From: Gammaproteobacteria bacterium
Lineage (GTDB): Bacteria; Pseudomonadota; Gammaproteobacteria; JAKEHO01
Length of the DNA stretch: 64,000 nucleotides
Assembly: GCA_022614965.1 (NCBI GenBank)
Contig: JAKEHO010000071.1
Location: forward strand, 19,804 to 83,803
Direction of reading: 5' to 3'
The notes under the pieces were generated by a model, which was not told where the DNA came from, ran no database searches, and saw nothing but the letters and a program-made list of their open reading frames with translations. Position numbers and translations under genes: made by a program. Of the stretch, positions 15,426 through 32,530 are shown one piece after another (positions within the stretch are counted from its first letter, which is position 1; every line of letters begins with the position of its first letter).

Positions 15426-17216
15426 CTAGCTCCGTCGTAGCTCGGCGAGCATCCCCGCCAGCTCCGTGTCGGTGAACAGTGGCAGCGAGCAGCGTTTCTC
15501 GGTGCAAACGAATACGGCGGCACGTTGCAGGCGCGGGTACTGTACGTCCGGGTTGGGCAATGGCCCCTCGGCATCATCCCACCACTCGACTCGCTTGTAC
15601 CATCCGGGGGTCTGCAGCGCGGCGGCAAAGAGGCGCGCCGCGGCAGGGTCCGTCTTGGAGCCACGTACCGTCAGGTGCAGAGGGTCCTCCCTTAACTCGT
15701 CATCGAGCAGCAAGATCCCGGATCGGGTGAAGCGCCACCGGGTGACCTCCTCGCTCATCACGTAGCGTGCGCTGTGTATGGCGAGTTCGCGATATGCACG
15801 TTCGCCGGTGTAGTGATATAGGAGATTGGCGAAGCGGGCGAAGGCCAGATTCTCCTGAATGTCCGGCGTCGCTGGAACCGGCGAGGCATCGGAAACGGCA
15901 GTTAACATGCCTGCGTCCGGAGCCTGGAAGTTCTCAGCCATGAAGTCAGCGGCCTCCTGGCTCCTGGCTAGCCAGTCACGCTCGCCCGTGACCCGGTACA
16001 GGTGCAGATAGGCGCGTCCCATCGCCAAGGTGTCGCCGAGGTAGGGCCCGGCTGCATCGGCCATGTCATGGCGAAAGCCGCCACCCGGCAGGGCGCGCTC
16101 GCTTTGCACCCAGGCAGCGGCGCGGCGTGCGCGCTCGAGGTAACCTGCATCTTGTGTTACCTCGTATAGCGTTGCGAGGGCCTCGATCGTCCATCCGTTC
16201 TCGCGCGCATAGCGGTTGCGGTCGACTCGAGGGAGCCCCTGGGCGCGCCGGGCCGCATCGTCGAGCGCGAAATACGCCTCGCTGTGTTCCCCGGGCACGA
16301 GGTCGGCGTCCTGGCTGGTGAAGTAGGCTCCCTCCGGGCTCGTAAGGAAGGTGTCGAGGTAGCGGATCGTTTCCTCTACTGCGTCGAGATAGCGCCGCTC
16401 ATGCCACAGGCCGTATGCCAGCGCGTAGCTACGCAGATAGCCTGTCTGCACCGCCATAACCTTCTCGTAGTGGGGATGGGCCCAGTCGCCGTGCGTGGAG
16501 TACTGGTAAAATCCGCCCCAAACCGGATCGCGTAATGCGAGCGCCGCATCAAGCGTCTGGCGAGCGCGCCGAGCCTCCTCCGCGTCGCCGCGGGATGCCC
16601 GCCACATGGCATACTCTACGCTGTTGCGATTCAGAAACTTCAACAGCGTGGGCAATCCACCGCGCTCGGCGTCGTAATGCAAGCGATGATGTTCCTCAAG
16701 CTCGGCGCGCAAGTGGGGCGAGAGCACGCCGGGTGGCGCGGCCAGATCACTCTCTGCCTGGCGGGTCACCCGCTCTGGTGAGGGGTTGGCGACGATTGTC
16801 TTGAGCAGGCGCGCCATCGGCTCCGGTGGTATGTATCCAGCGCGCTTCACGATCTCGGTCCCGTCGGGTGCGAACACAACCGTGGCTGGCCAACCGTACT
16901 CTTGATAGCGATTGGCGAGGTCGGGGCGGGCGTCTTGATCGACCTTCACTGCAATATAGTGGCGCAAAACAAGCGCCGCTACCTGTGGATCAGCATAGGT
17001 CTCGTGGTCCATCACGTGGCACCAGTGGCACCATACCGCCTCGAGGTCGAGCAGCACGAAGCGATGCTCGCGCGACGCCTGCGCGAATACTGCCTCTGAC
17101 CAGGAGTGCCAAGCGATCGCCCCCGTGGGCGAATCAGCATCCAATGCATTCCCCGTACCGGGGGCTGCCATAAGGGCGAGCACAAGGGTGGGTAGTTGTA
17201 TTACCGAACTTCGCAT
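15426..17216 (-). CDS. thioredoxin-domain protein (DUF255/YyaL-like, alpha-toroid C-terminal domain)
   Basis: Trimmed to ATG 17216 (MRSSVIQLPTLVLALMAAPG signal). LLDLEAVWCHWCHVMD is a thioredoxin-like CxxC. Lies in a GC-rich block. Confidence 0.85.
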   Translation of the reverse strand: MRSSVIQLPTLVLALMAAPGTGNALDADSPTGAIAWHSWSEAVFAQASREHRFVLLDLEAVWCHWCHVMDHETYADPQVAALVLRHYIAVKVDQDARPDLANRYQEYGWPATVVFAPDGTEIVKRAGYIPPEPMARLLKTIVANPSPERVTRQAESDLAAPPGVLSPHLRAELEEHHRLHYDAERGGLPTLLKFLNRNSVEYAMWRASRGDAEEARRARQTLDAALALRDPVWGGFYQYSTHGDWAHPHYEKVMAVQTGYLRSYALAYGLWHERRYLDAVEETIRYLDTFLTSPEGAYFTSQDADLVPGEHSEAYFALDDAARRAQGLPRVDRNRYARENGWTIEALATLYEVTQDAGYLERARRAAAWVQSERALPGGGFRHDMADAAGPYLGDTLAMGRAYLHLYRVTGERDWLARSQEAADFMAENFQAPDAGMLTAVSDASPVPATPDIQENLAFARFANLLYHYTGERAYRELAIHSARYVMSEEVTRWRFTRSGILLLDDELREDPLHLTVRGSKTDPAAARLFAAALQTPGWYKRVEWWDDAEGPLPNPDVQYPRLQRAAVFVCTEKRCSLPLFTDTELAGMLAELRRS

Positions 17217-17515
17217 CGTCGCATGACAGGGTACAGGTGCCTTCGTCACGCTGGCACTGATGAGCGTCACCTTCGTGACCCCTCGCCAGCACGCCAGAGT
17301 ATACACCTTGATTAACAGAACACCCGCATAAACAGTCTTAACATTTTTTATAAAGATATTTCGTTTTATCAATGAGATAAGGCTCATTATGTATGTATTT
17401 TCTTAGTGCAGAGTTTAACAAAGTTTACGGACAAGCCTGTTAAAGCCTGGCGAGTGGTGCTAAATTTGTGCGCGAGTGGGATTGTGTTTTTTAACCTGAC
17501 TTGGAGGGTGCCTCA

Positions 17516-17893
17516 ATGGCAAACAAAAAAATTCTTACACCGATGGTAGCGGCGATTGGTACGACGTTTGTTATTTCGTTGGCAGCCAGCCCGCTTGTAA
17601 ATGCTGCTGAAAACCCGTTTTCAATGAATAATCTTTCGAGGGGTTTTATGGTAGCTGCAGCCGAAGATGAAGGCCGCAGGTGTGGTACCTTTTGTGGCGG
17701 TGTTACTGAAAGTGGGAACCCACGGGGCGGTGAAGCAAAGTGCGCTAACATGTGTGCTGAGGTAAAAAAGTGCGGTACCTTTTGTGCTGGTTTTAATGAA
17801 ACTGGGGAACCGCGGGTAACAGCAGAGGGCTTGGGCGGTGAAGTAGCCAAGTGCGGTAACATTTGTGCTGCTGATCCGAGACTCAAGGAGTAA
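17516..17893 (+). CDS. bufferin/HvfA-type RiPP precursor (Sec signal, 8 Cys)
   Basis: ATG 17516 follows the RBS ggaggg. Signal peptide ..SPLVNAAE, then the NPFSMNNLSRGFMVAAAE motif. Four C-x3-C motifs (CGTFC, CANMC, CGTFC, CGNIC). Immediately upstream of the DUF692 and DUF2063 genes. Confidence 0.75.
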   Translation: MANKKILTPMVAAIGTTFVISLAASPLVNAAENPFSMNNLSRGFMVAAAEDEGRRCGTFCGGVTESGNPRGGEAKCANMCAEVKKCGTFCAGFNETGEPRVTAEGLGGEVAKCGNICAADPRLKE

Positions 17894-17958
17894 GCGCCTC
17901 TTAAGTCACCAAAAATAACTAAGTGAAGCGAAGGAACGTTCCATCCTTTAACCGCTGA

Positions 17959-18831
17959 ATGTCACAAGTGGAAGAAGGCGATTATCCTGTGCAAGGTGCA
18001 GGGTTGGGTCTGCGGCGAGTCCATTTCGACTCGCTCGCAGATCAATTTCCTGCCCAAATTGATTTTATGGAAGTCGCCCCGGAAAACTGGATCGACGTGG
18101 GCGGTCTTGTGGGTCACCAATTCCAGGCAATCGCTGAACAAATCCCTATCGTTGGCCACGGGCTTTCACTCAATCTTGGCGGTCCGGCACCGCTAGATGA
18201 GGCCTTTTTATGTCGTATCAAAAAGTTTCTCGATAGGTATAACATCCGTTGCTACAGCGAGCATTTAAGCTACTGTGCTGATGATGCACATCTGTATGAT
18301 CTGATGCCGATACCGTTCACAGAGGACGCCGTACATCACGTTGCCCGGAGAATTAAACAGACCCAGGAAATAATTGGTCGGCGCATGGCAATTGAAAATG
18401 TTTCCTATTATGCCGCGCCGGGCAAAGAGATGGAGGAAATTGATTTTATTAATGCGGTGCTAGATGAAGCGGATTGCTATCTCCATCTTGATGTCAACAA
18501 TATCTATGTCAATAGTATTAATCATCGTTATGATCCGGAAGCCTTTCTCAAGGCATTACCTGGTGAGCGAATCGCTTATGCACATATCGCAGGGCACTAC
18601 TTTCAGGCCGAGGATCTGCGGATTGATACGCATGGTGCAGGTGTAATTGATCCCGTCTGGCATTTGTTAGATGTTGCCTATGAGTGCTTTGGCGTTTTCC
18701 CGACGCTACTTGAGCGTGATTTAGATATCCCTCCACTGGAAGACCTCTTGAAAGAGGTGGATATCATTCATAATTATCAACGGAAATATCGATTGCTAGA
18801 TGATGGAAGCATCTCAAGACAACAAGCCTAA
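17959..18831 (+). CDS. DUF692 family MNIO-type RiPP maturase (BufB/HvfB/MbnB-like)
   Basis: 290 aa. GAGLGLRRVHF...FMEVAPENW...HGLSLNLGG...SEHLSY...LMPIPFT...IENVSYY is the typical DUF692 pattern. Confidence 0.9.
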   Translation: MSQVEEGDYPVQGAGLGLRRVHFDSLADQFPAQIDFMEVAPENWIDVGGLVGHQFQAIAEQIPIVGHGLSLNLGGPAPLDEAFLCRIKKFLDRYNIRCYSEHLSYCADDAHLYDLMPIPFTEDAVHHVARRIKQTQEIIGRRMAIENVSYYAAPGKEMEEIDFINAVLDEADCYLHLDVNNIYVNSINHRYDPEAFLKALPGERIAYAHIAGHYFQAEDLRIDTHGAGVIDPVWHLLDVAYECFGVFPTLLERDLDIPPLEDLLKEVDIIHNYQRKYRLLDDGSISRQQA

Positions 18832-19585
18832 GAGCTTTATTGATATCCAGTACGCATTCACACGTTATATGCGTGATCCTGAGAATCAACCAGCGCCTGC
18901 TGGTGTTGATGGTCGGGGTGTGGAGATCTATCGTGATCTAATATATAGAAATACTGAACATATGATCGGTAACTTATTTCCGGTGTTACGAAAGATTACA
19001 TCGGACGATCGCTGGAAGTCGATGATTCGGGGGTTTTTTAGGCAGCACCAATCACACAATCCATTGTTTACTAAGCTTCCACAGGAGTTTTTGCGATACC
19101 TTGAGCAAGAGCATGATGCCATTGACGATCCAGCGTTTCTTCTCGAGCTAGCTCATTATGAGTGGATAGACTATGCGCTTTCCATTGATGTTAGAGAGAT
19201 AGAGTACGAAGGAATTGATCCAGAAGGCGACATGTTAGGAGGCATCCCGGTGCTGAGTCCACTCGCGTGGCCTCTGAGTTATCAATATCCTGTGCACACC
19301 ATTAGTCCTAAAAACATGCCTTTAGAAGCTCCTACACAACCCACCTATATAATCGTATATCGTGATCGCAATTATAAGGTGGGATTTATTGAGCTTAATG
19401 CGGTTTCTGCCCGTTTAGTAGAACTGATCAAGGACGATAATAATGTCACCGGCGGTAGACTTCTCGAAACCATCGCTGCTGAATTGAAACATCCCGATCC
19501 CGAGGTCGTTTTTAAAGGAGGTCTGGAGATTATGGAGACCATGAGGGAGAAAGATGTTTTGCTCGGCGTAAAGAAAACGCAATGA
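18800..19585 (+). CDS. DUF2063 family RiPP maturation partner (BufC/HvfC-like)
   Basis: 261 aa overlapping the DUF692 3' end. FTRYMRDPENQP...VEIYRDLIYRNTEHMIGNLFPVLRKI is a typical DUF2063 N-terminal domain. Confidence 0.85.
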   Translation: MMEASQDNKPKSFIDIQYAFTRYMRDPENQPAPAGVDGRGVEIYRDLIYRNTEHMIGNLFPVLRKITSDDRWKSMIRGFFRQHQSHNPLFTKLPQEFLRYLEQEHDAIDDPAFLLELAHYEWIDYALSIDVREIEYEGIDPEGDMLGGIPVLSPLAWPLSYQYPVHTISPKNMPLEAPTQPTYIIVYRDRNYKVGFIELNAVSARLVELIKDDNNVTGGRLLETIAAELKHPDPEVVFKGGLEIMETMREKDVLLGVKKTQ

Positions 19586-19630: not shown

Positions 19631-20215
19631 CTATGCAGCTGTTAGCGTTTCAGTTTCAAAGGCATTTTGCATTAAAATCTTCACCATGTCCTTAGCTTCC
19701 TCAGCAGCCTTAACCCGGGTGCTGACGCAGGCAATTATCAGCGCGCCTTCCATCAACGTACGGATCTGCCGAGCTAACTCAGCCGGATTTTTAGCGCCTG
19801 CTAATTCTGCGAGGCCTCGCACGTATTCGTAGACTAGTCGATTGTGTTCAGCCGCTGCGGCGTGAATCGGATGGCCTGGCTTCGAGAATTCTGCAGAAGC
19901 CTTGACGAAGAGACATCCGGAGAAGTTTTTTTGCCTAAACCACTCACCTAGTACGTCAAATATGGCCAGAAGTCGGTCATATGGGGTGTCTGCTTGGTGC
20001 TCAACGCTTCGCATGAACCAGTTCCGCCACTGCTCATCCATGCGGTGAAGGGCAGCAAGGATAAGTTCATCTTTTGATCTGAAGTGGTTGTACAGGGTCA
20101 TCCTTGAGACCCCGGAGTTCGACAGGATCTTGTCGATTCCCGTGGCGTGGAACCCGTCGCGGTAAAATAACTCGACAGCGGTATCAATAAGCTGCTCGCG
20201 TTTCGATGAAGCCAT
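19631..20215 (-). CDS. TetR/AcrR family transcriptional regulator
   Basis: 194 aa. N-terminal HTH KREQLIDTAVELFYRDGFHATGIDKILSNSGVSRMTLYNHFRSKDELI. Confidence 0.9.
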   Translation of the reverse strand: MASSKREQLIDTAVELFYRDGFHATGIDKILSNSGVSRMTLYNHFRSKDELILAALHRMDEQWRNWFMRSVEHQADTPYDRLLAIFDVLGEWFRQKNFSGCLFVKASAEFSKPGHPIHAAAAEHNRLVYEYVRGLAELAGAKNPAELARQIRTLMEGALIIACVSTRVKAAEEAKDMVKILMQNAFETETLTAA

Positions 20216-20533: not shown

Positions 20534-20785
20534 ATGACTAAGAAAATTGCTGTTGTCGCAGCCATTGTTGCTGGACTTTTGAGTGGATCAGCCACGGCAA
20601 TGCCATTCCATCTTGGAAATTCGGATCGTGAAGACCTTAAGCGCAGCGAAGTTATTCAGGCGCCAGCGCACACCGATGTCAAGGCTTATTACCTTGAACA
20701 CGTGACCGTACGTAACGATCAGAACATTGCGTCCGAGCGTCAAATGGTCGATTTAGCCCCCTGGTACCTTTCCACACAGGGTTAA
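20534..20785 (+). CDS. small secreted protein, unknown function
   Basis: Trimmed to ATG 20534 (MTKKIAVVAAIVAGLLSGSATA signal). 83 aa. Divergent from the TetR gene. Confidence 0.55.
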   Translation: MTKKIAVVAAIVAGLLSGSATAMPFHLGNSDREDLKRSEVIQAPAHTDVKAYYLEHVTVRNDQNIASERQMVDLAPWYLSTQG

Positions 20786-21711: not shown

Positions 21712-21790
21712 GCTATATGTAGAACTTCGCTGAATCAGCGATTTGGAAAAAACGGATAGACTTATTTCTAGTTGTTGCGGGAGGTGGGCC

Positions 21791-22438
21791 ATGAGTACAA
21801 ATGAAGCGCGCCCAATGCCGACGATTGAGCTGGCAAAAAACGGTCCCTACCTAGTAAAGAATTTAACGGGGCTGCGTAACTCGAAGGGCGATAAACTGCG
21901 GATCAAAGCGGTGATTGCGCTCTGCCGTTGCGGCGGCTCGGCGAATAAGCCGTTTTGCGACGGGACTCATTCCAAAACTGGGTTTTCCGGCGAAAATCTG
22001 TCCGATGGCAGCATGGATAAGCGCGACAACTATGTGGGCAAAAAAATCACTATCCATGATAATCGGGGCATTTGCGCCCACGCTGGCAAGTGCGCCAATG
22101 GCTTGCCCTCGGTGTGGCGTGTGGGAGTCGAACCCTGGATTGATCCCGGCGGCGCTGACGTCGAAGCAATTATTGAAACCGTTAGGCAGTGTCCATCCGG
22201 CGCGCTGAGCTATTCCATTGGTGGGGATGAGCACCGCGACCAAGATCGAGTTCCAGCGGTATATGTATCAAAAGATGGTCCGTATCACGTTACAGGTGGA
22301 GTCGAACTGAAAGATGTGCCTCGAGGTGACGGCGCTTCTGAAGAACACTACACACTGTGCCGATGTGGTGGCTCTAATAACAAACCGTTTTGTGATGGCA
22401 CGCATGGGTACATCAAGTTTCAGGACGACAAGAACTAA
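21791..22438 (+). CDS. CDGSH iron-sulfur domain protein
   Basis: ATG 21791 follows the RBS gggagg. Two CDGSH motifs (CRCGGSANKPFCDGTH, CRCGGSNNKPFCDGTH) flank a Cys-rich central segment. Confidence 0.9.
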   Translation: MSTNEARPMPTIELAKNGPYLVKNLTGLRNSKGDKLRIKAVIALCRCGGSANKPFCDGTHSKTGFSGENLSDGSMDKRDNYVGKKITIHDNRGICAHAGKCANGLPSVWRVGVEPWIDPGGADVEAIIETVRQCPSGALSYSIGGDEHRDQDRVPAVYVSKDGPYHVTGGVELKDVPRGDGASEEHYTLCRCGGSNNKPFCDGTHGYIKFQDDKN

Positions 22439-29947: not shown

Positions 29948-30137
29948 GCCCAGTACCAAATGAAACCAAAGGGAGTCCGCCACACCGTCGTGAAGCACCA
30001 AGCCAGCACTGATCGCAAACGGAGAAGGACGCAGATCTCTCGAGCGGGATCACTCTATTAACAGCGAGTGACGGGGAATTTCTACAGGCGTTCACGGTCT
30101 GAATTAGTAATTATGGGAGAGTGCAATTGGAGGTTTG

Positions 30138-30704
30138 ATGAAACGCCGAAACTTGCTTAAAGGCATGGTGGCGGCGCCCTTGCTGATGGTGATGGCACGC
30201 TATGGGTTTGCTGCAGAGAATTCGGGAGGATCAGTGAACGTGGAAGAGCTACAGGCGAACTGGATGGATCTACTTGCGGAGGGTTCCGACGTGGTGTTAA
30301 CCCGCGAACCGCTCAACCTCACCAAGGAGGAGTGGAAGAAGATCCTCACATCGGCGCAATTTCACGTACTGCGCGAGGAAGGCACCGAACGCCCCCACAC
30401 GAGCCCGCTGAACGAAGAAAAAAGGCTCGGCGTCTACATATGTGTTGGCTGCAGCCTGCCACTGTTCACGTCAGCGATGAAATATGATAGCGGTACCGGC
30501 TGGCCAAGTTTCTTTACCACGATTCCCGGTGCATTCGCCACGAAGAAAGACTACGTATGGCTATTGCCGAGGACCGAGTACCACTGCGTGCGCTGCGCCG
30601 GCCATCAGGGTCACGTGTTTGATGACGGACCGGCGCCCACTGGTCAGCGCTGGTGTAATAATGGGGTGGCGCTGCGTTTTGTCCCTAAAACCGGCGAATC
30701 TTGA
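30138..30704 (+). CDS. msrB: peptide-methionine (R)-S-oxide reductase MsrB with Tat-type signal
   Basis: KRRNLLKG twin-arginine motif followed by a hydrophobic region. Zn CxxC pairs (CVGC, CVRC). Catalytic RWCNNG. GHVFDDGP. Confidence 0.9.
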   Translation: MKRRNLLKGMVAAPLLMVMARYGFAAENSGGSVNVEELQANWMDLLAEGSDVVLTREPLNLTKEEWKKILTSAQFHVLREEGTERPHTSPLNEEKRLGVYICVGCSLPLFTSAMKYDSGTGWPSFFTTIPGAFATKKDYVWLLPRTEYHCVRCAGHQGHVFDDGPAPTGQRWCNNGVALRFVPKTGES

Positions 30705-30882: not shown

Positions 30883-31551
30883 TCAAACGGGGAGTGGAGG
30901 GTACCAGTCGCCCCGTCCACCCGGTGTGGTGTCTAAGACGTTCCACAGCGGCCACATGAGGTCCATATGACGCGCATCGCCTTCTGCGTCGGCATACAGC
31001 AACTCGGTTCCCCAGAAGTGATGGATCGCGCCATTTCGACGAACGAACACGTTGGCCATCGGCATCTGCTGGCCTTCCTCATCTTCAGCGAAGTAGTCGA
31101 GGTGATAACTGTTGTTTGCGGACGAGAGTAGATGCAAGGCATCCCAGCCACGTGCCTTTGCGAACTTGATCATCCGTTGGATAGGCGAGCGCGCGACCAC
31201 AGCGAAATTGATCCTTTGCATGATATGGTGAGCATTACCGTTTAGCCCATCGAGGAGCGAGCTACACATCGGGCACGGCTTTTCCATCTTCGGTCCGTAC
31301 ATGAATCCGTAAAGGAACAGCGTGTCCTTGTCGCCTTGGAAAAGCTTTGACAGCCTGACCTTAATTGCCTTTCCGTGGCGATCAAGCGCCTCGAACACAT
31401 AGTCCTCTCTGACCGTACCCCCAAGCGGTAGCTTTCTGCGCATGGCCGCAACCCGCTCAATTTGTAGTTTCAGCTCGACCTCGGCTTTTAGGAGGCCGAT
31501 TCGCGCATGGCGGTATTCAGTTGTTTCATTCGGAAACTTAATCTCTGTCAT
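30883..31551 (-). CDS. DUF899 domain (thioredoxin-like) protein
   Basis: Trimmed to ATG 31551 (RBS ggaggt; MTEIKFPNETTEYR). CPMCSSLLDG motif. 222 aa. Confidence 0.9.
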   Translation of the reverse strand: MTEIKFPNETTEYRHARIGLLKAEVELKLQIERVAAMRRKLPLGGTVREDYVFEALDRHGKAIKVRLSKLFQGDKDTLFLYGFMYGPKMEKPCPMCSSLLDGLNGNAHHIMQRINFAVVARSPIQRMIKFAKARGWDALHLLSSANNSYHLDYFAEDEEGQQMPMANVFVRRNGAIHHFWGTELLYADAEGDARHMDLMWPLWNVLDTTPGGRGDWYPPLPV

Positions 31552-31755
31552 TGGTACCTCCGGATCTATGACCAATCAGCAGGAAATTCAACACAGGTAA
31601 ACGGGACGCATAGCGGCCATTCTGGGGTTGCAAGAGGACCTTACCCAGTATGGCAGCGAAGACGATCGCAAGTTCATTCCGTTTCCTGCACCCAGTGATT
31701 AAAACGACGAGCGGCGGTGGGGCGGTTGGGTCTTGCAATGCCACATCAGGGGAAA

Positions 31756-31960: not shown

Positions 31961-32530
31961 CTATTTTCTGACATTTTGCTGACCATTTCCTGGAACCTTA
32001 CAAAACCCTTGGGAAGGCACATCAAGAGCGCTATTGAACTTACTCGATAAATTTTGAAAAGAGATGAGTCCAGTCAACTCCACAATAGCATCTTCATCAA
32101 GGAAGCTCCTTAATCGTTGCATCAGCTCATCACTTACTTGCTGGTCTGAATAGGTAATAGCCTCGGCATACTCTAGTGCGATCTTTTCTATTTCATCAAA
32201 GTGATCGCTTTCTCTCCAATGCTCGATAGCTTCCACCTTTTCCATTGAACCAGCCCTCTCTGCTAAGGTGGCGGAATTGATGTCAACGCAAAAACGACAC
32301 CAATTAATCTGCGATACGCGCACGATGACTAAAGAACGTAACACAGGGCTCAATGGAGAGCTCTTTCTATCCAATATACCGTAGAGCGTTGCTACAGCAG
32401 CAAACAACTTGGGCATCCTTGCCCAAAGTAGGGCGGGCTTCAGAATCTGTCCATATTTTCTTTTTTGGTACCAAAACAATAGGCGCAGGTACCACGGATA
32501 TCCCTGCAGTGGTTTTTCCGGGATTCTCAT
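31961..32530 (-). CDS. carboxymuconolactone decarboxylase/AhpD-like family protein
   Basis: 189 aa. The segment VRVSQINWCRFCVDIN carries the AhpD-like CxxC motif. Confidence 0.8.
   Translation of the reverse strand: MRIPEKPLQGYPWYLRLLFWYQKRKYGQILKPALLWARMPKLFAAVATLYGILDRKSSPLSPVLRSLVIVRVSQINWCRFCVDINSATLAERAGSMEKVEAIEHWRESDHFDEIEKIALEYAEAITYSDQQVSDELMQRLRSFLDEDAIVELTGLISFQNLSSKFNSALDVPSQGFCKVPGNGQQNVRK

What the first reader, a model, noticed from the sequence alone, without database searches (positions are those of the whole stretch)
17516..19585. Bufferin/HvfA-type MNIO RiPP operon: Sec-signal Cys-rich precursor + DUF692 + DUF2063
Three co-directional, tightly spaced genes make up the operon:
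- a 125-aa precursor with a cleavable-looking signal peptide (..SPLVNAAE), the family-typical NPF..M..L..G(F/Y)M..A segment, and a Cys-rich C-terminal half
- a DUF692 enzyme, from the multinuclear non-heme iron oxidase (MNIO) family that includes MbnB, TglH, BufB and HvfB
- a DUF2063 partner (BufC/HvfC type)

In the recently characterised bufferin systems, this enzyme pair converts precursor cysteines to thiooxazole-type heterocycles, giving periplasmic copper-binding peptides.

This locus differs from the textbook layout in two ways. I see no DoxX-like fourth gene. Instead, the next gene is a convergent TetR regulator, which is itself divergent from an 83-aa secreted protein gene.
Basis: partly seen in the sequence, partly recalled or inferred. 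Interest (0 to 1): 0.7.

Follow-up and report, generated by a model that had tools for sequence, protein, structure and literature searches.

The report
Copper-peptide operon with unusual paired-cysteine precursor
This is a real three-gene operon of a known, very widespread kind that makes a secreted cysteine-derived (thiooxazole) copper-binding peptide, but its precursor peptide belongs to a rare, undescribed variant in which the cysteines come in four conserved CxxxC pairs instead of the usual EGKCG repeats.

Summary
There are three co-directional genes: a 125-aa precursor (17516-17893), an MNIO/DUF692 enzyme (17959-18831) and a DUF2063 partner (18800-19585).

- **Enzyme pair.** Both proteins pass the curated NCBIfam equivalog cut-offs for HvfB (424 vs 360 bits) and HvfC (279 vs 142). 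The enzyme fails the BufB cut-off (268 vs 310). This is therefore an HvfABC-type "captophorin" operon, a class known from more than 24,000 loci, and not a bufferin in the strict sense.
- **Precursor.** It shares the Sec signal peptide and the NPF..GYMVA segment of many EGKCG-type (FonA-like) precursors, but it matches no precursor model (HvfA, KCGExKCG or DUF2282). Its core is an internal duplication carrying four invariant (K/R)C(G/A)xxC(G/A) pairs.
- **Rarity.** This core type is found in about 5 clusters among 1.84 billion representative proteins and in 4 of 185,579 species genomes. It always lies directly upstream of the MNIO gene, sometimes behind tandem EGKCG-type precursors.
- **Enzyme co-variation.** The associated MNIOs form their own clade. 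The window's subclade carries Phe→Leu at a site shown experimentally, in the homologue FonB, to gate the residue before the substrate Cys.
- **Context.** Lack of a DoxX gene is common (27 of 54 related operons have one). The TetR gene and the 83-aa ORF are not conserved neighbours.

Verdict: a known system with a modestly novel precursor variant.

The parts
17516..17893 (+). Precursor peptide gene (hvfA-like, CxxxC-type), 125 aa. Layout: signal peptide about residues 1-30 (VNA|AE); leader about 31-50 (ENPFSMNNLSRGFMVAAA); core 51-125 with 8 Cys as four CxxxC pairs (RRCGTFCG, AKCANMCA, KKCGTFCA, AKCGNICA).
   Evidence: - ORF and SD.
- Homologues: 15.
- All 8 Cys are invariant in 8 CxxxC-type sequences of 53-80% identity.
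- Internal duplication scores 89 vs 27.6+/-5.8 for shuffles.
- dN/dS 0.25-0.39.
- No Pfam or NCBIfam hit.
17459..17468 (+). Candidate extended -10 promoter element (TGCTAAATT) in the 128-nt divergent intergenic region. Inference only.
   Evidence: This block is conserved among the window, L087 and L088 in the upstream alignment. The consensus promoter scan found no sigma-70-like site on the + strand here, so confidence is low.
17894..17958 (+). 65-nt spacer between the precursor and MNIO genes. It is unusually conserved and contains the palindrome GGAACGTTCC (17933-17942). Function unknown.
   Evidence: The spacer is about 90% identical in L087, L088 and L089, while dS of the adjacent coding sequence is 0.39-0.51. 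There is no significant RNA fold (z=-0.16) and no covariation.
17959..18831 (+). HvfB-family multinuclear non-haem iron oxidase (MNIO, DUF692), 290 aa.
   Evidence: - NF003818 scores 424 bits against a 360 cut-off; BufB scores 268 against 310.
- PF05114 E=7e-102.
- PDB 3BWW E=1e-78.
- 60% identical to FonB.
- All 24 near-invariant H/D/E/N columns of 73 homologues are retained, including D223-x-H225, E252 and D254.
- R19/R20 align to FonB R15/R16. L255 sits at the FonB Phe250-equivalent site.
18800..19585 (+). HvfC-family partner (PME1: an N-terminal DUF2063 domain plus a C-terminal NGO1945_C domain, with a RiPP-recognition element), 261 aa.
   Evidence: NF050145 scores 279 bits against a 142 cut-off. 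PF09836 and PF22106 both hit. PDB 3DEE E=4e-5.

Best explanation
This is a minimal hvfABC-type ('captophorin') RiPP operon.

**Proposed mechanism**
1. The 125-aa precursor is made in the cytoplasm.
2. Its post-signal leader (ENPF..L..GFMVA) is engaged by the RRE-containing partner HvfC.
3. HvfC activates the iron enzyme HvfB, which uses O2 to oxidise core cysteines by four electrons each into 5-thiooxazoles.
4. The modified peptide is exported through Sec and the signal peptide is removed after VNA30. The roughly 95-aa product sequesters Cu(I) in the periplasm through thiooxazole N/S donors.

**What is unusual**
The substrate core carries four invariant (K/R)-C-(G/A)-x-x-C-(G/A) units arranged as a duplicated two-unit module, not tandem EGKCG 5-mers. 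I read each unit as the counterpart of one 'KCGExKCG' Cu(I)-binding pair.

**Which cysteines are modified**
- The first Cys of each pair fits the experimentally defined FonBC substrate rules and is very likely modified.
- The second Cys is always followed by a small residue but preceded by F/M/I. It is either also converted, giving 8 thiooxazoles and about 4 Cu(I), or kept as a thiolate or disulfide partner.

**Basis of each step**
- Shown here: gene identities, family membership of B and C, leader homology, invariance of the Cys pairs, obligate adjacency to the MNIO gene, and enzyme/substrate co-variation.
- Inferred from characterised homologues (HvfABC, FonABC, NgoABC, MmrABC): the chemistry, Sec export and Cu binding.
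For: **Enzyme and partner**
- HvfB and HvfC pass their equivalog cut-offs.
- The enzyme is 60% identical to FonB and 48% to H. influenzae HvfB, with the Arg pair and catalytic Asp aligned.
- All conserved metal-ligand-type columns are retained.

**Precursor**
- The signal peptide and leader are homologous to those of EGKCG-type precursors.
- Within operons that carry both types, leaders are 75-87% identical, against a mean of 56% between loci. This argues for one shared HvfC.
- A CxxxC-type precursor lies immediately upstream of the MNIO gene in all 12 loci examined.
- In the window it is the only KCG-rich ORF in 64 kb.
- All 8 Cys are invariant. The residue after every Cys is G, A or S in 112 of 112 contexts.

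**Match to published substrate rules**
- FonBC accepts only G or A after Cys. It tolerates K/R/A/T before Cys, and Phe there is blocked unless FonB Phe250 is mutated (PMC13097082, sections 12 and 14).
- The window, L087 and L089 have GTFC motifs, and their MNIOs carry Leu at that site. Of 72 related MNIOs, 70 have Phe.

**Enzyme clade**
- MNIOs next to CxxxC precursors form an exclusive NJ clade (7 of 8 distinct sequences), with the signature RR-VHF directly after the substrate-contacting Arg pair.

**Chemistry of homologues**
- 5-thiooxazole formation and Cu(I) binding are established for characterised homologues: PMC13097082, bioRxiv 10.64898/2026.06.05.730506, PMC12538549 and PMC11252979.
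Against: - No experiment exists for any CxxxC-type precursor.
- The precursor fails every curated precursor model.
- The structure prediction was uninformative, with pLDDT 40.7.
- The F->L co-variation is a single evolutionary event. It is not universal: L010 has GTFC with Phe, and the other CxxxC-associated MNIOs keep Phe.
- No copper-homeostasis genes or copper-responsive regulators lie nearby.
- No convincing promoter was found.
- Metal specificity is assumed by analogy.
Confidence: 0.78

Rival explanations
1. Only the four canonical (K/R)-C-(G/A) cysteines are converted to thiooxazoles. The second cysteine of each pair stays a thiol and acts as a third ligand (a mixed thiooxazole/thiolate site), or forms disulfides. 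This would echo HvfA C38/C43 and Buf1, where some Cys are left unmodified and form a disulfide.
For: - In 40 of 56 contexts the second Cys is preceded by a bulky hydrophobic residue (I/F/V/M/L; the rest T/S/N). Wild-type FonB processes Phe at this position poorly (PMC13097082, section 12).
- Most CxxxC-associated MNIOs keep Phe at the gating site.
- HvfA has two unmodified, disulfide-forming Cys (PMC11252979).
Against: - The residue after the second Cys is strictly G, A or S (56 of 56), which matches the enzyme's position-5 requirement.
- The window's subclade has F->L at the gating site.
- FonBC modified an LVHCY motif once (PMC13097082, section 13), so a hydrophobic -1 residue is not an absolute block.
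Confidence: 0.4
2. The CxxxC-type protein is not an MNIO substrate at all. It would be an unmodified periplasmic Cys-rich metal-binding or redox peptide that merely shares the signal and leader, with HvfBC serving an EGKCG-type precursor encoded elsewhere in the genome.
For: - Four related loci carry EGKCG-type precursors in the same operon.
- The precursor fails the HvfA models.
- Only 64 kb of the genome is visible.
Against: - The gene is immediately adjacent to the MNIO gene in 12 of 12 loci. In the tandem operons it, and not the EGKCG gene, is the one next to the enzyme.
- No EGKCG-type ORF lies next to the enzyme in the window or in L002, L006, L010, L087 and L089. L006 has one about 1.5 kb downstream, beyond a transposase gene.
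- The post-signal leader is retained. It has no role in secretion but matches the region expected to contact the RRE.
- The MNIO clade co-diverges with the core type.
Confidence: 0.07
3. The enzyme performs different chemistry on the CxxxC pairs, for example an intramolecular cross-link or macrocycle between the paired Cys, or methanobactin-like oxazolone/thioamide, instead of 5-thiooxazoles.
For: - MNIOs are chemically diverse (PMC12452194).
- The CxxxC-associated clade has its own signature next to the substrate-binding Arg pair.
Against: - The enzyme is 70-75% identical to MNIOs that sit beside ordinary EGKCG precursors. It also passes the HvfB equivalog cut-off.
- In tandem operons one enzyme must serve both precursor types.
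- Every characterised MNIO-PME1 pair installs 5-thiooxazoles (PMC13097082).
Confidence: 0.07
4. The precursor ORF is a spurious translation of a DNA repeat. NCBI keeps a model for 'KCGN motif-containing spurious repeat'.
For: - The relative P0008 gave a sub-threshold hit to NF038097 (E=0.36, 11 bits against a 26 cut-off).
- The gene contains an internal DNA duplication.
Against: - dN/dS is 0.25-0.39, with many synonymous changes.
- A strong SD lies at the correct spacing.
- The signal peptide, the invariant Cys and the fixed position upstream of MNIO genes hold across divergent genomes.
- The window's own protein has no hit to that model.
Confidence: 0.01

Closest known systems
Fontiphorin system FonABC (Fontimonas thermophila), the type captophorin of the Lys-Cys group (PMC13097082)
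   Same: - Gene order A-B-C.
- The MNIO is 60% identical, with R15/R16 and the catalytic Asp aligned.
- The partner is a PME1/HvfC-type protein.
- The precursor has a Sec signal followed by a ..L..GYMVA.. leader, and Lys-Cys-Gly sites preceded by an acidic residue.
   Different: - The FonA core is tandem EGKCG 5-mers (7 Cys). Here there are four KCGxxC(G/A) pairs in a duplicated module of about 35 aa.
- The enzyme has Leu instead of Phe250, and RR-VHF instead of RR-ALL.
- The window's leader has an NPF motif that FonA lacks.
Oxazolin system HvfABC(X) of non-typeable Haemophilus influenzae (PMC11252979; structure revised to 5-thiooxazoles in bioRxiv 10.64898/2026.06.05.730506)
   Same: - NCBIfam assigns the window's B and C proteins to the HvfB and HvfC equivalogs.
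- The precursor is secreted and Cys-rich.
- In HvfA, pairs of modified Cys each bind one Cu(I).
   Different: - HvfB is only 48% identical.
- HvfA has three AEGKCGEGKCG repeats and no NPF/GYMVA leader.
- The hvf operon includes the DoxX-like gene hvfX, which is absent here.
- The window's precursor fails both HvfA models.
Bufferins Buf1 (DUF2282) and Buf2 (BUF_6/12Cys) with BufB/BufC (PMC11626156, PMC12452194)
   Same: - Same enzyme superfamily and partner type.
- Sec-exported product.
- Thiooxazole chemistry and a role in protection from copper stress.
- In Buf1, some Cys are left unmodified and form a disulfide.
   Different: - The MNIO scores below the BufB cut-off (268 vs 310 bits).
- The precursor has no DUF2282 hit. 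It is of the Lys-Cys type, not the Cys-Lys type.
- No sigma or anti-sigma (NrsF) genes lie nearby.
'CxxxxC' precursor family of Antoine et al. 2025 (76 proteins; 54% of BGCs with a Lactamase_B_2 gene)
   Same: A small family of signal-peptide precursors upstream of MNIO-DUF2063 genes, defined by paired cysteines.
   Different: - The spacing differs: four intervening residues there, three here. The window's precursor has 0 CxxxxC and 4 CxxxC motifs.
- No Lactamase_B_2 gene lies nearby.
- That family's HMM is not available here, so identity cannot be formally excluded.

Membership tests
Captophorin / MNIO-PME1 RiPP gene cluster (PMC13097082) | An MNIO (PF05114) enzyme is encoded in the locus. 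| tested here: met
   PF05114 E=7e-102; NF003818 scores 424 bits against a 360 cut-off; PDB 3BWW E=1e-78.
Captophorin / MNIO-PME1 RiPP gene cluster (PMC13097082) | A PME1 partner with a DUF2063 domain and an RRE lies adjacent to the MNIO gene. | tested here: met
   PF09836 and PF22106 both hit. NF050145 'RiPP_RRE_HvfC' scores 279 bits against a 142 cut-off. The gene overlaps the MNIO gene by 32 nt.
Captophorin / MNIO-PME1 RiPP gene cluster (PMC13097082) | A Cys-rich precursor peptide is encoded directly upstream of the MNIO gene. | tested here: met
   The 125-aa ORF has 8 Cys and ends 65 nt upstream of the MNIO gene. The same arrangement holds in 12 of 12 loci with this core type.
Captophorin / MNIO-PME1 RiPP gene cluster (PMC13097082) | Cys residues are converted to 5-thiooxazoles and the product binds Cu. 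| not testable with these tools
   This requires LC-MS, NMR and metal-binding assays. It is inferred from 60% identity to FonB and from retention of the catalytic and ligand residues.
HvfB family MNIO (NCBIfam NF003818 equivalog) | The score exceeds the curated cut-off, and the catalytic Asp, the Arg pair and the conserved metal-ligand columns are retained. | tested here: met
   424.2 bits against a 360 cut-off. R19, R20 and D254 align to FonB R15, R16 and the ERD Asp. All 24 near-invariant H/D/E/N columns are retained. One exception: the Phe250-equivalent residue is Leu.
HvfA family precursor / Buf_EGKCG-oxazolin (NF050137 KCGExKCG_twice; NF050188 HvfA) | Repeated EGKCG (KCGExKCG) motifs are recognised by the family models. 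| tested here: not met
   No hit at E<=10. As a positive control, the EGKCG-type relatives P0009, P0010 and P0013 pass NF050137. The core has no tandem 5-mer repeat, and Cys spacing within pairs is CxxxC, not CxxxxC.
HvfA family precursor / Buf_EGKCG-oxazolin (NF050137 KCGExKCG_twice; NF050188 HvfA) | An N-terminal Sec signal peptide, and a leader homologous to those of family members. | tested here: met
   The signal and NPF..GYMVA leader align with EGKCG-type precursors. Of 149 new hits listed from the profile search, 103 are KCG-repeat type and share only this region. SignalP was not available.
Bufferin (BufA1/DUF2282 or BufA2 with BufB/BufC) | The precursor matches DUF2282 or BUF_6/12Cys, and the MNIO passes the BufB equivalog cut-off. 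| tested here: not met
   The precursor has no Pfam or NCBIfam hit. BufB NF050167 scores 268 bits against a 310 cut-off.
'CxxxxC' MNIO precursor family (PMC12452194) | Conserved CxxxxC motifs, with a frequent Lactamase_B_2 neighbour. | tested here: not met
   The precursor has 0 CxxxxC motifs. No such neighbour appeared among the annotated ORFs. The family HMM itself was not available.

The most novel reading that the evidence does not exclude
CxxxC-type precursors may define a distinct captophorin subclass that arose by duplication of an EGKCG-type precursor inside the operon.
- Each compact KCGxxC(G/A) unit would form a bis-thiooxazole, or a mixed thiooxazole/thiolate, chelate. Its geometry would be tighter and more ordered than in EGKCG peptides, so its metal affinity or selectivity would differ.
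- The MNIO would have co-evolved to accept a hydrophobic residue before the second Cys. The changes are the RR-VHF signature and the Phe->Leu (or Asn) switch at the FonB Phe250-equivalent gate.
- The window's operon, with this precursor as its only adjacent substrate, would be the cleanest natural system for testing the idea.
Probability: 0.3. Interest if true: 0.55.

Novelty: new variant of a known kind. Interest (0 to 1): 0.4.

Why it matters
MNIO-PME1 operons occur in about half of Pseudomonadota reference genomes (PMC13097082). They are emerging as a major copper and oxidative-stress defence, including in pathogens. All characterised members of the HvfB clade act on EGKCG repeats.

A natural, conserved substrate in which every canonical Lys-Cys-Gly site is partnered by a second Cys three residues later poses a concrete question about enzyme selectivity and metal-site design: two thiooxazoles per unit, or a thiooxazole plus a thiolate? 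It comes with a natural Phe→Leu variant at a residue already shown by mutagenesis to gate that selectivity.

The matter is testable with three genes and a mass spectrometer. It would refine the rules for predicting captophorin products, but it would not overturn the current picture of the class.

Tried and rejected
- **Structure of the precursor.** AlphaFold2 with the 8-sequence alignment gave mean pLDDT 40.7 and pTM 0.15. This is unusable, so no fold search was run.
- **RNA structure in the spacer.** I looked for an attenuator or structured RNA in the conserved 65-nt spacer. The fold has z=-0.16 and there are no compensatory pairs, so this was rejected. The spacer's conservation remains unexplained.
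- **Promoter and terminator scan.** Counts did not exceed the shuffled expectation (8 vs 5.8 promoter-like sites, 4 vs 3.3 terminator-like sites).
- **DoxX, Glu_synthase-domain and Na/H-exchanger genes.** tblastn with proteins from L001 and L002 found none in the window.
- **A second, EGKCG-type precursor in the window.** A six-frame scan found none.
- **TetR, 83-aa ORF, DUF255 thioredoxin-like gene and OMP as conserved partners.** None recurs beside any related operon, so all are excluded from the system.
- **Copper genes in the neighbourhood.** None were found among 20 further ORFs scanned against Pfam.
- **Published descriptions.** Strings such as KCGNIC, KCGTFC and 'CxxxC' do not occur in the supplements held as text for PMC13097082 and PMC12452194, and no MNIO or thiooxazole paper uses 'CxxxC'. 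Some of those files were cut when stored, and the large datasets are not held, so this is weak evidence of absence.
- **Spurious-repeat explanation (NF038097).** Rejected on dN/dS and context.
Full report
**1. Observation**

- The precursor runs from 17516 to 17893 on the + strand and encodes 125 aa.
- The MNIO gene runs from 17959 to 18831 (290 aa).
- The partner gene runs from 18800 to 19585 (261 aa) and overlaps the MNIO gene by 32 nt.

The precursor's ATG sits 8 nt after a GGAGG at 17503-17507. This favours the 125-aa reading over the upstream TTG start.

The N-terminus has a basic n-region, a hydrophobic core and a VNA|AE cleavage motif. No signal-peptide predictor was available, so this rests on sequence features and family conservation. 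Eight Cys lie in the C-terminal 70 residues.

The convergent TetR gene (19631-20215, -) and the 83-aa ORF (20534-20785, +) are as described.

**2. Identity of the enzyme pair**

The MNIO matches PF05114 (E=7e-102). It matches the NCBIfam HvfB equivalog NF003818 at 424 bits against a cut-off of 360. It falls below the BufB cut-off, at 268 bits against 310.

The partner matches PF09836 (DUF2063) and PF22106. It matches the HvfC equivalog NF050145 at 279 bits against a cut-off of 142.

Other comparisons of the enzyme:
- Against solved structures, it matches the Histophilus somni MNIO 3BWW at E=1e-78. The partner weakly matches N. gonorrhoeae 3DEE.
- Sequences in the supplement of PMC13097082 let me align directly. 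The enzyme is 60% identical to FonB and 48% identical to H. influenzae HvfB.
- FonB R15/R16 align to window R19/R20. The FonB ERD-F dipeptide aligns to window D254/L255. The paper numbers that dipeptide D249/F250. The machine-read text is offset by two, but it is the only D-F dipeptide in that part of the protein.
- All 24 near-invariant His/Asp/Glu/Asn columns in an alignment of 73 homologues are retained. These include the DVNN and D-T-H motifs that hold the site-3 ligands studied in bioRxiv 10.64898/2026.07.17.739211.

The enzyme therefore looks catalytically competent.

**3. The precursor is the unusual part**

It hits nothing in NCBIfam at E<=10 and only noise in Pfam (E above 1). As a positive control, EGKCG-type relatives recovered in the same homology search score on NF050137 (KCGExKCG_twice) and NF050188 (HvfA). 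P0009, P0010 and P0013 pass the NF050137 cut-off. CxxxC-type relatives hit neither model.

A word-indexed search of 5.8 billion proteins found only 15 relatives. The identical protein is an unnamed hypothetical from a Gammaproteobacteria MAG (locus tag L0Z68_06930).

Aligning these relatives splits them into two groups with a common signal and leader, SLAASPLVNAAENPF..L..GYMVA.
- One group has the usual EG(K/N)CG repeats.
- The other group, which includes the window, has four (K/R)C(G/A)xxC(G/A) units.

All eight Cys are invariant across eight such sequences of 53-80% identity. The core is an internal duplication of a unit of about 32-38 aa, each unit holding two CxxxC pairs. The alignment scores 89 against 27.6+/-5.8 for shuffles.

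The gene evolves under purifying selection. Overall dN/dS is 0.25-0.39, and for the core it is 0.16-0.34 against the three closest relatives.

**4. Rarity and context**

An exhaustive HMMER profile search of 1.84 billion 50%-identity representatives gave 504 hits at E<=1e-3. Only two scored at E<=1e-30.

Motif classification of the listed hits found few with the CxxxC-type core:
- P0016 and P0017, which are full-length;
- P0032 and P0068, which are fragments;
- P0021, a 12-Cys 'CxxxC ladder' variant.

One further hit, P0035, is an intermediate with a single KCGxxC unit.

A scan of one genome for each of 185,579 species found 145 leader-sharing loci. Among the best 80, only four (L007-L010) are CxxxC-type. 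All come from uncultured bacteria.

In all 12 loci with this core type, the precursor sits immediately upstream of the MNIO gene. These loci are the window, L001, L002, L006-L010 and L087-L090.

In L001, L007, L008 and L009, one or two EGKCG-type precursors sit in tandem before it. Within such an operon the two precursor types share 75-87% leader identity. The mean against EGKCG-type leaders from other loci is 56% and the maximum is 77%. This indicates origin by local duplication and recognition by a single HvfC.

In the window the CxxxC-type ORF is the only KCG-rich ORF in 64 kb.

**5. Enzyme and substrate co-variation**

In a neighbour-joining tree of 70 MNIOs from the fetched loci, seven of the eight distinct enzymes adjacent to CxxxC-type precursors form an exclusive clade. 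L010 is the outlier.

The only discriminating positions are residues 21-23 (V-H-F, against A/E-L/F-I/L/M elsewhere). They lie directly after the Arg pair. PMC13097082 (section 14) places that pair against the substrate's position-1 Glu.

At the FonB Phe250-equivalent site, 70 of 72 MNIOs have Phe and the window has Leu. Its two closest relatives with full-length enzymes, L087 and L089, also have Leu. The ladder variant's enzyme (L090) has Asn.

PMC13097082 (sections 12-14) gives the relevant substrate rules:
- FonBC requires Gly or Ala after the Cys.
- It tolerates K, R, A or T before the Cys.
- Phe before the Cys blocks the wild-type enzyme, and the F250D variant rescues it.

Across 14 distinct CxxxC-type precursors (56 pairs):
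- The first Cys of each pair is preceded by K, R or Q and followed by G or A.
- The second Cys is preceded by I, F, V, M, L, T, S or N and followed by G, A or S in 56 of 56 cases.

The window's subclade has GTFC in pairs 1 and 3, which matches its Leu enzyme. This co-variation is suggestive, but it reflects one evolutionary event. It is also imperfect, because L010 has GTFC with Phe.

**6. Mechanism**

By homology with HvfABC, FonABC, NgoABC and MmrABC, I infer the following steps. The supporting papers are PMC11252979, PMC13097082, PMC12538549 and bioRxiv 10.64898/2026.06.05.730506.
- HvfC engages the leader.
- HvfB oxidises core Cys to 5-thiooxazoles, with a loss of 4 Da for each.
- The peptide is exported by Sec and its signal peptide is cleaved.
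- The product sequesters Cu(I) in the periplasm.

I read each KCGxxC(G/A) unit as the counterpart of one KCGExKCG pair, which binds one Cu(I) per two heterocycles in oxazolin. This predicts up to four Cu per peptide. The first Cys of each pair is very likely modified. Whether the second is modified as well, or stays a thiolate or disulfide partner, is open at roughly even odds.

**7. What is not part of the system**

- No DoxX, Glu_synthase-domain or Na/H-exchanger homologue exists in the window. DoxX is detectable downstream in only 27 of 54 related operons with enough flank. PMC12452194 also describes DoxX as variably present. The missing fourth gene is therefore ordinary.
- The TetR gene, the 83-aa ORF, the divergent DUF255 thioredoxin-like gene and the OMP gene recur beside no related operon.
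- No copper-homeostasis genes were found among 20 further neighbouring ORFs.

**8. Comparison with known families and novelty**

The operon is a bona fide member of the captophorin (MNIO-PME1) class. Its B and C proteins belong to the HvfB and HvfC families.

The precursor is not a member of the HvfA/EGKCG family as currently modelled, nor of Buf1 or Buf2. Its CxxxC spacing differs from the 'CxxxxC' family of PMC12452194.

I found no description of this core type in the searchable text or supplements of the survey papers. The large datasets are not fully held, however, so the protein may well sit unremarked in the published 'Lys-Cys' bin.

I rate the finding a new variant of a known kind, with interest 0.4. 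The operon is ordinary. The precursor variant is rare and gives a tidy, testable question about enzyme selectivity and metal-site design.

**9. Dead ends**

- The AlphaFold2 model of the precursor was unusable, with pLDDT 40.7.
- The conserved spacer shows no RNA-structure signal.
- Promoter and terminator scans did not exceed chance.

Noticed in passing
window 17894-17958 (palindrome GGAACGTTCC at 17933-17942): The 65-nt spacer between the precursor and MNIO genes is about 90% identical in the three closest relatives (L087, L088, L089), although synonymous divergence of the flanking coding sequence is 0.39-0.51. It shows no significant RNA fold and no covariation. It could be a protein-binding site or a translational-coupling element, but it remains unexplained.
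   Followed up: partly
L001 140-454 and 708-1055; L007 4430-5233; L008 1714-2628; L009 5981-7395: Related operons carry one or two classic EGKCG-type precursors in tandem, directly upstream of the CxxxC-type precursor. Leaders within one operon are 75-87% identical. One MNIO/HvfC pair apparently serves two chemically different core types.
   Followed up: yes
L001 2832-6348; L002 5257-8675; L009 9185-12718; L090 8203-11703: A module lies downstream of hvfC in many related gammaproteobacterial operons. It comprises a roughly 500-aa membrane protein with a Glu_synthase (PF01645, FMN-type) domain, DoxX and a Na/H exchanger. These are present in 22, 27 and 13 of 54 operons respectively. The Glu_synthase association is not mentioned in the text of PMC12452194 or in the held supplement of PMC13097082. 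The window lacks the whole module.
   Followed up: partly
L090 6001-6339 (protein P0021): A more extreme relative has 12 Cys in an almost continuous CxxxC 'ladder' (KCSNTCSEKCSTSCGEKCSNTCSEKCGSIC) behind the same signal and leader, followed by MNIO-HvfC-Glu_synthase-DoxX-Na/H genes. Its MNIO has Asn at the FonB Phe250-equivalent site. A weak Pfam hit to PF27846 (tSAM_targ_Cxxx_rpt) is on record.
   Followed up: partly
window 15426-17387 (-) versus 17516-19585 (+): There is a sharp composition step at the divergent intergenic region. The DUF255/thioredoxin-like plus six-hairpin gene is 62.4% GC, while the hvf genes are 44-50% GC against a window mean of 51.7%. One side may have been acquired horizontally. 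The DUF255 gene is not a conserved neighbour of related operons.
   Followed up: partly
window 21743-22438 (+), 30135-30704 (+), 30883-31575 (-), 31961-32530 (-): There is a loose concentration of redox and stress genes downstream. They are a fused divergent-4Fe-4S (Fer4_19) plus double-CDGSH iron-sulfur protein, an MsrB (SelR) protein with an N-terminal extension, a DUF899 thioredoxin-like protein and an AhpD-like CMD protein. No link to the hvf operon was established.
   Followed up: no
L002 2-1055 and 3198-5221: One contig carries two MNIO-HvfC pairs separated by a 591-aa TPR protein. Only the second pair is preceded by the CxxxC-type precursor.
   Followed up: no
window 17491-17886 (-): A 131-aa antisense ORF spans almost the whole precursor gene. 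It is most likely a by-product of the Gly/Ala/Cys-rich, repeat-containing sense frame and not a gene.
   Followed up: no
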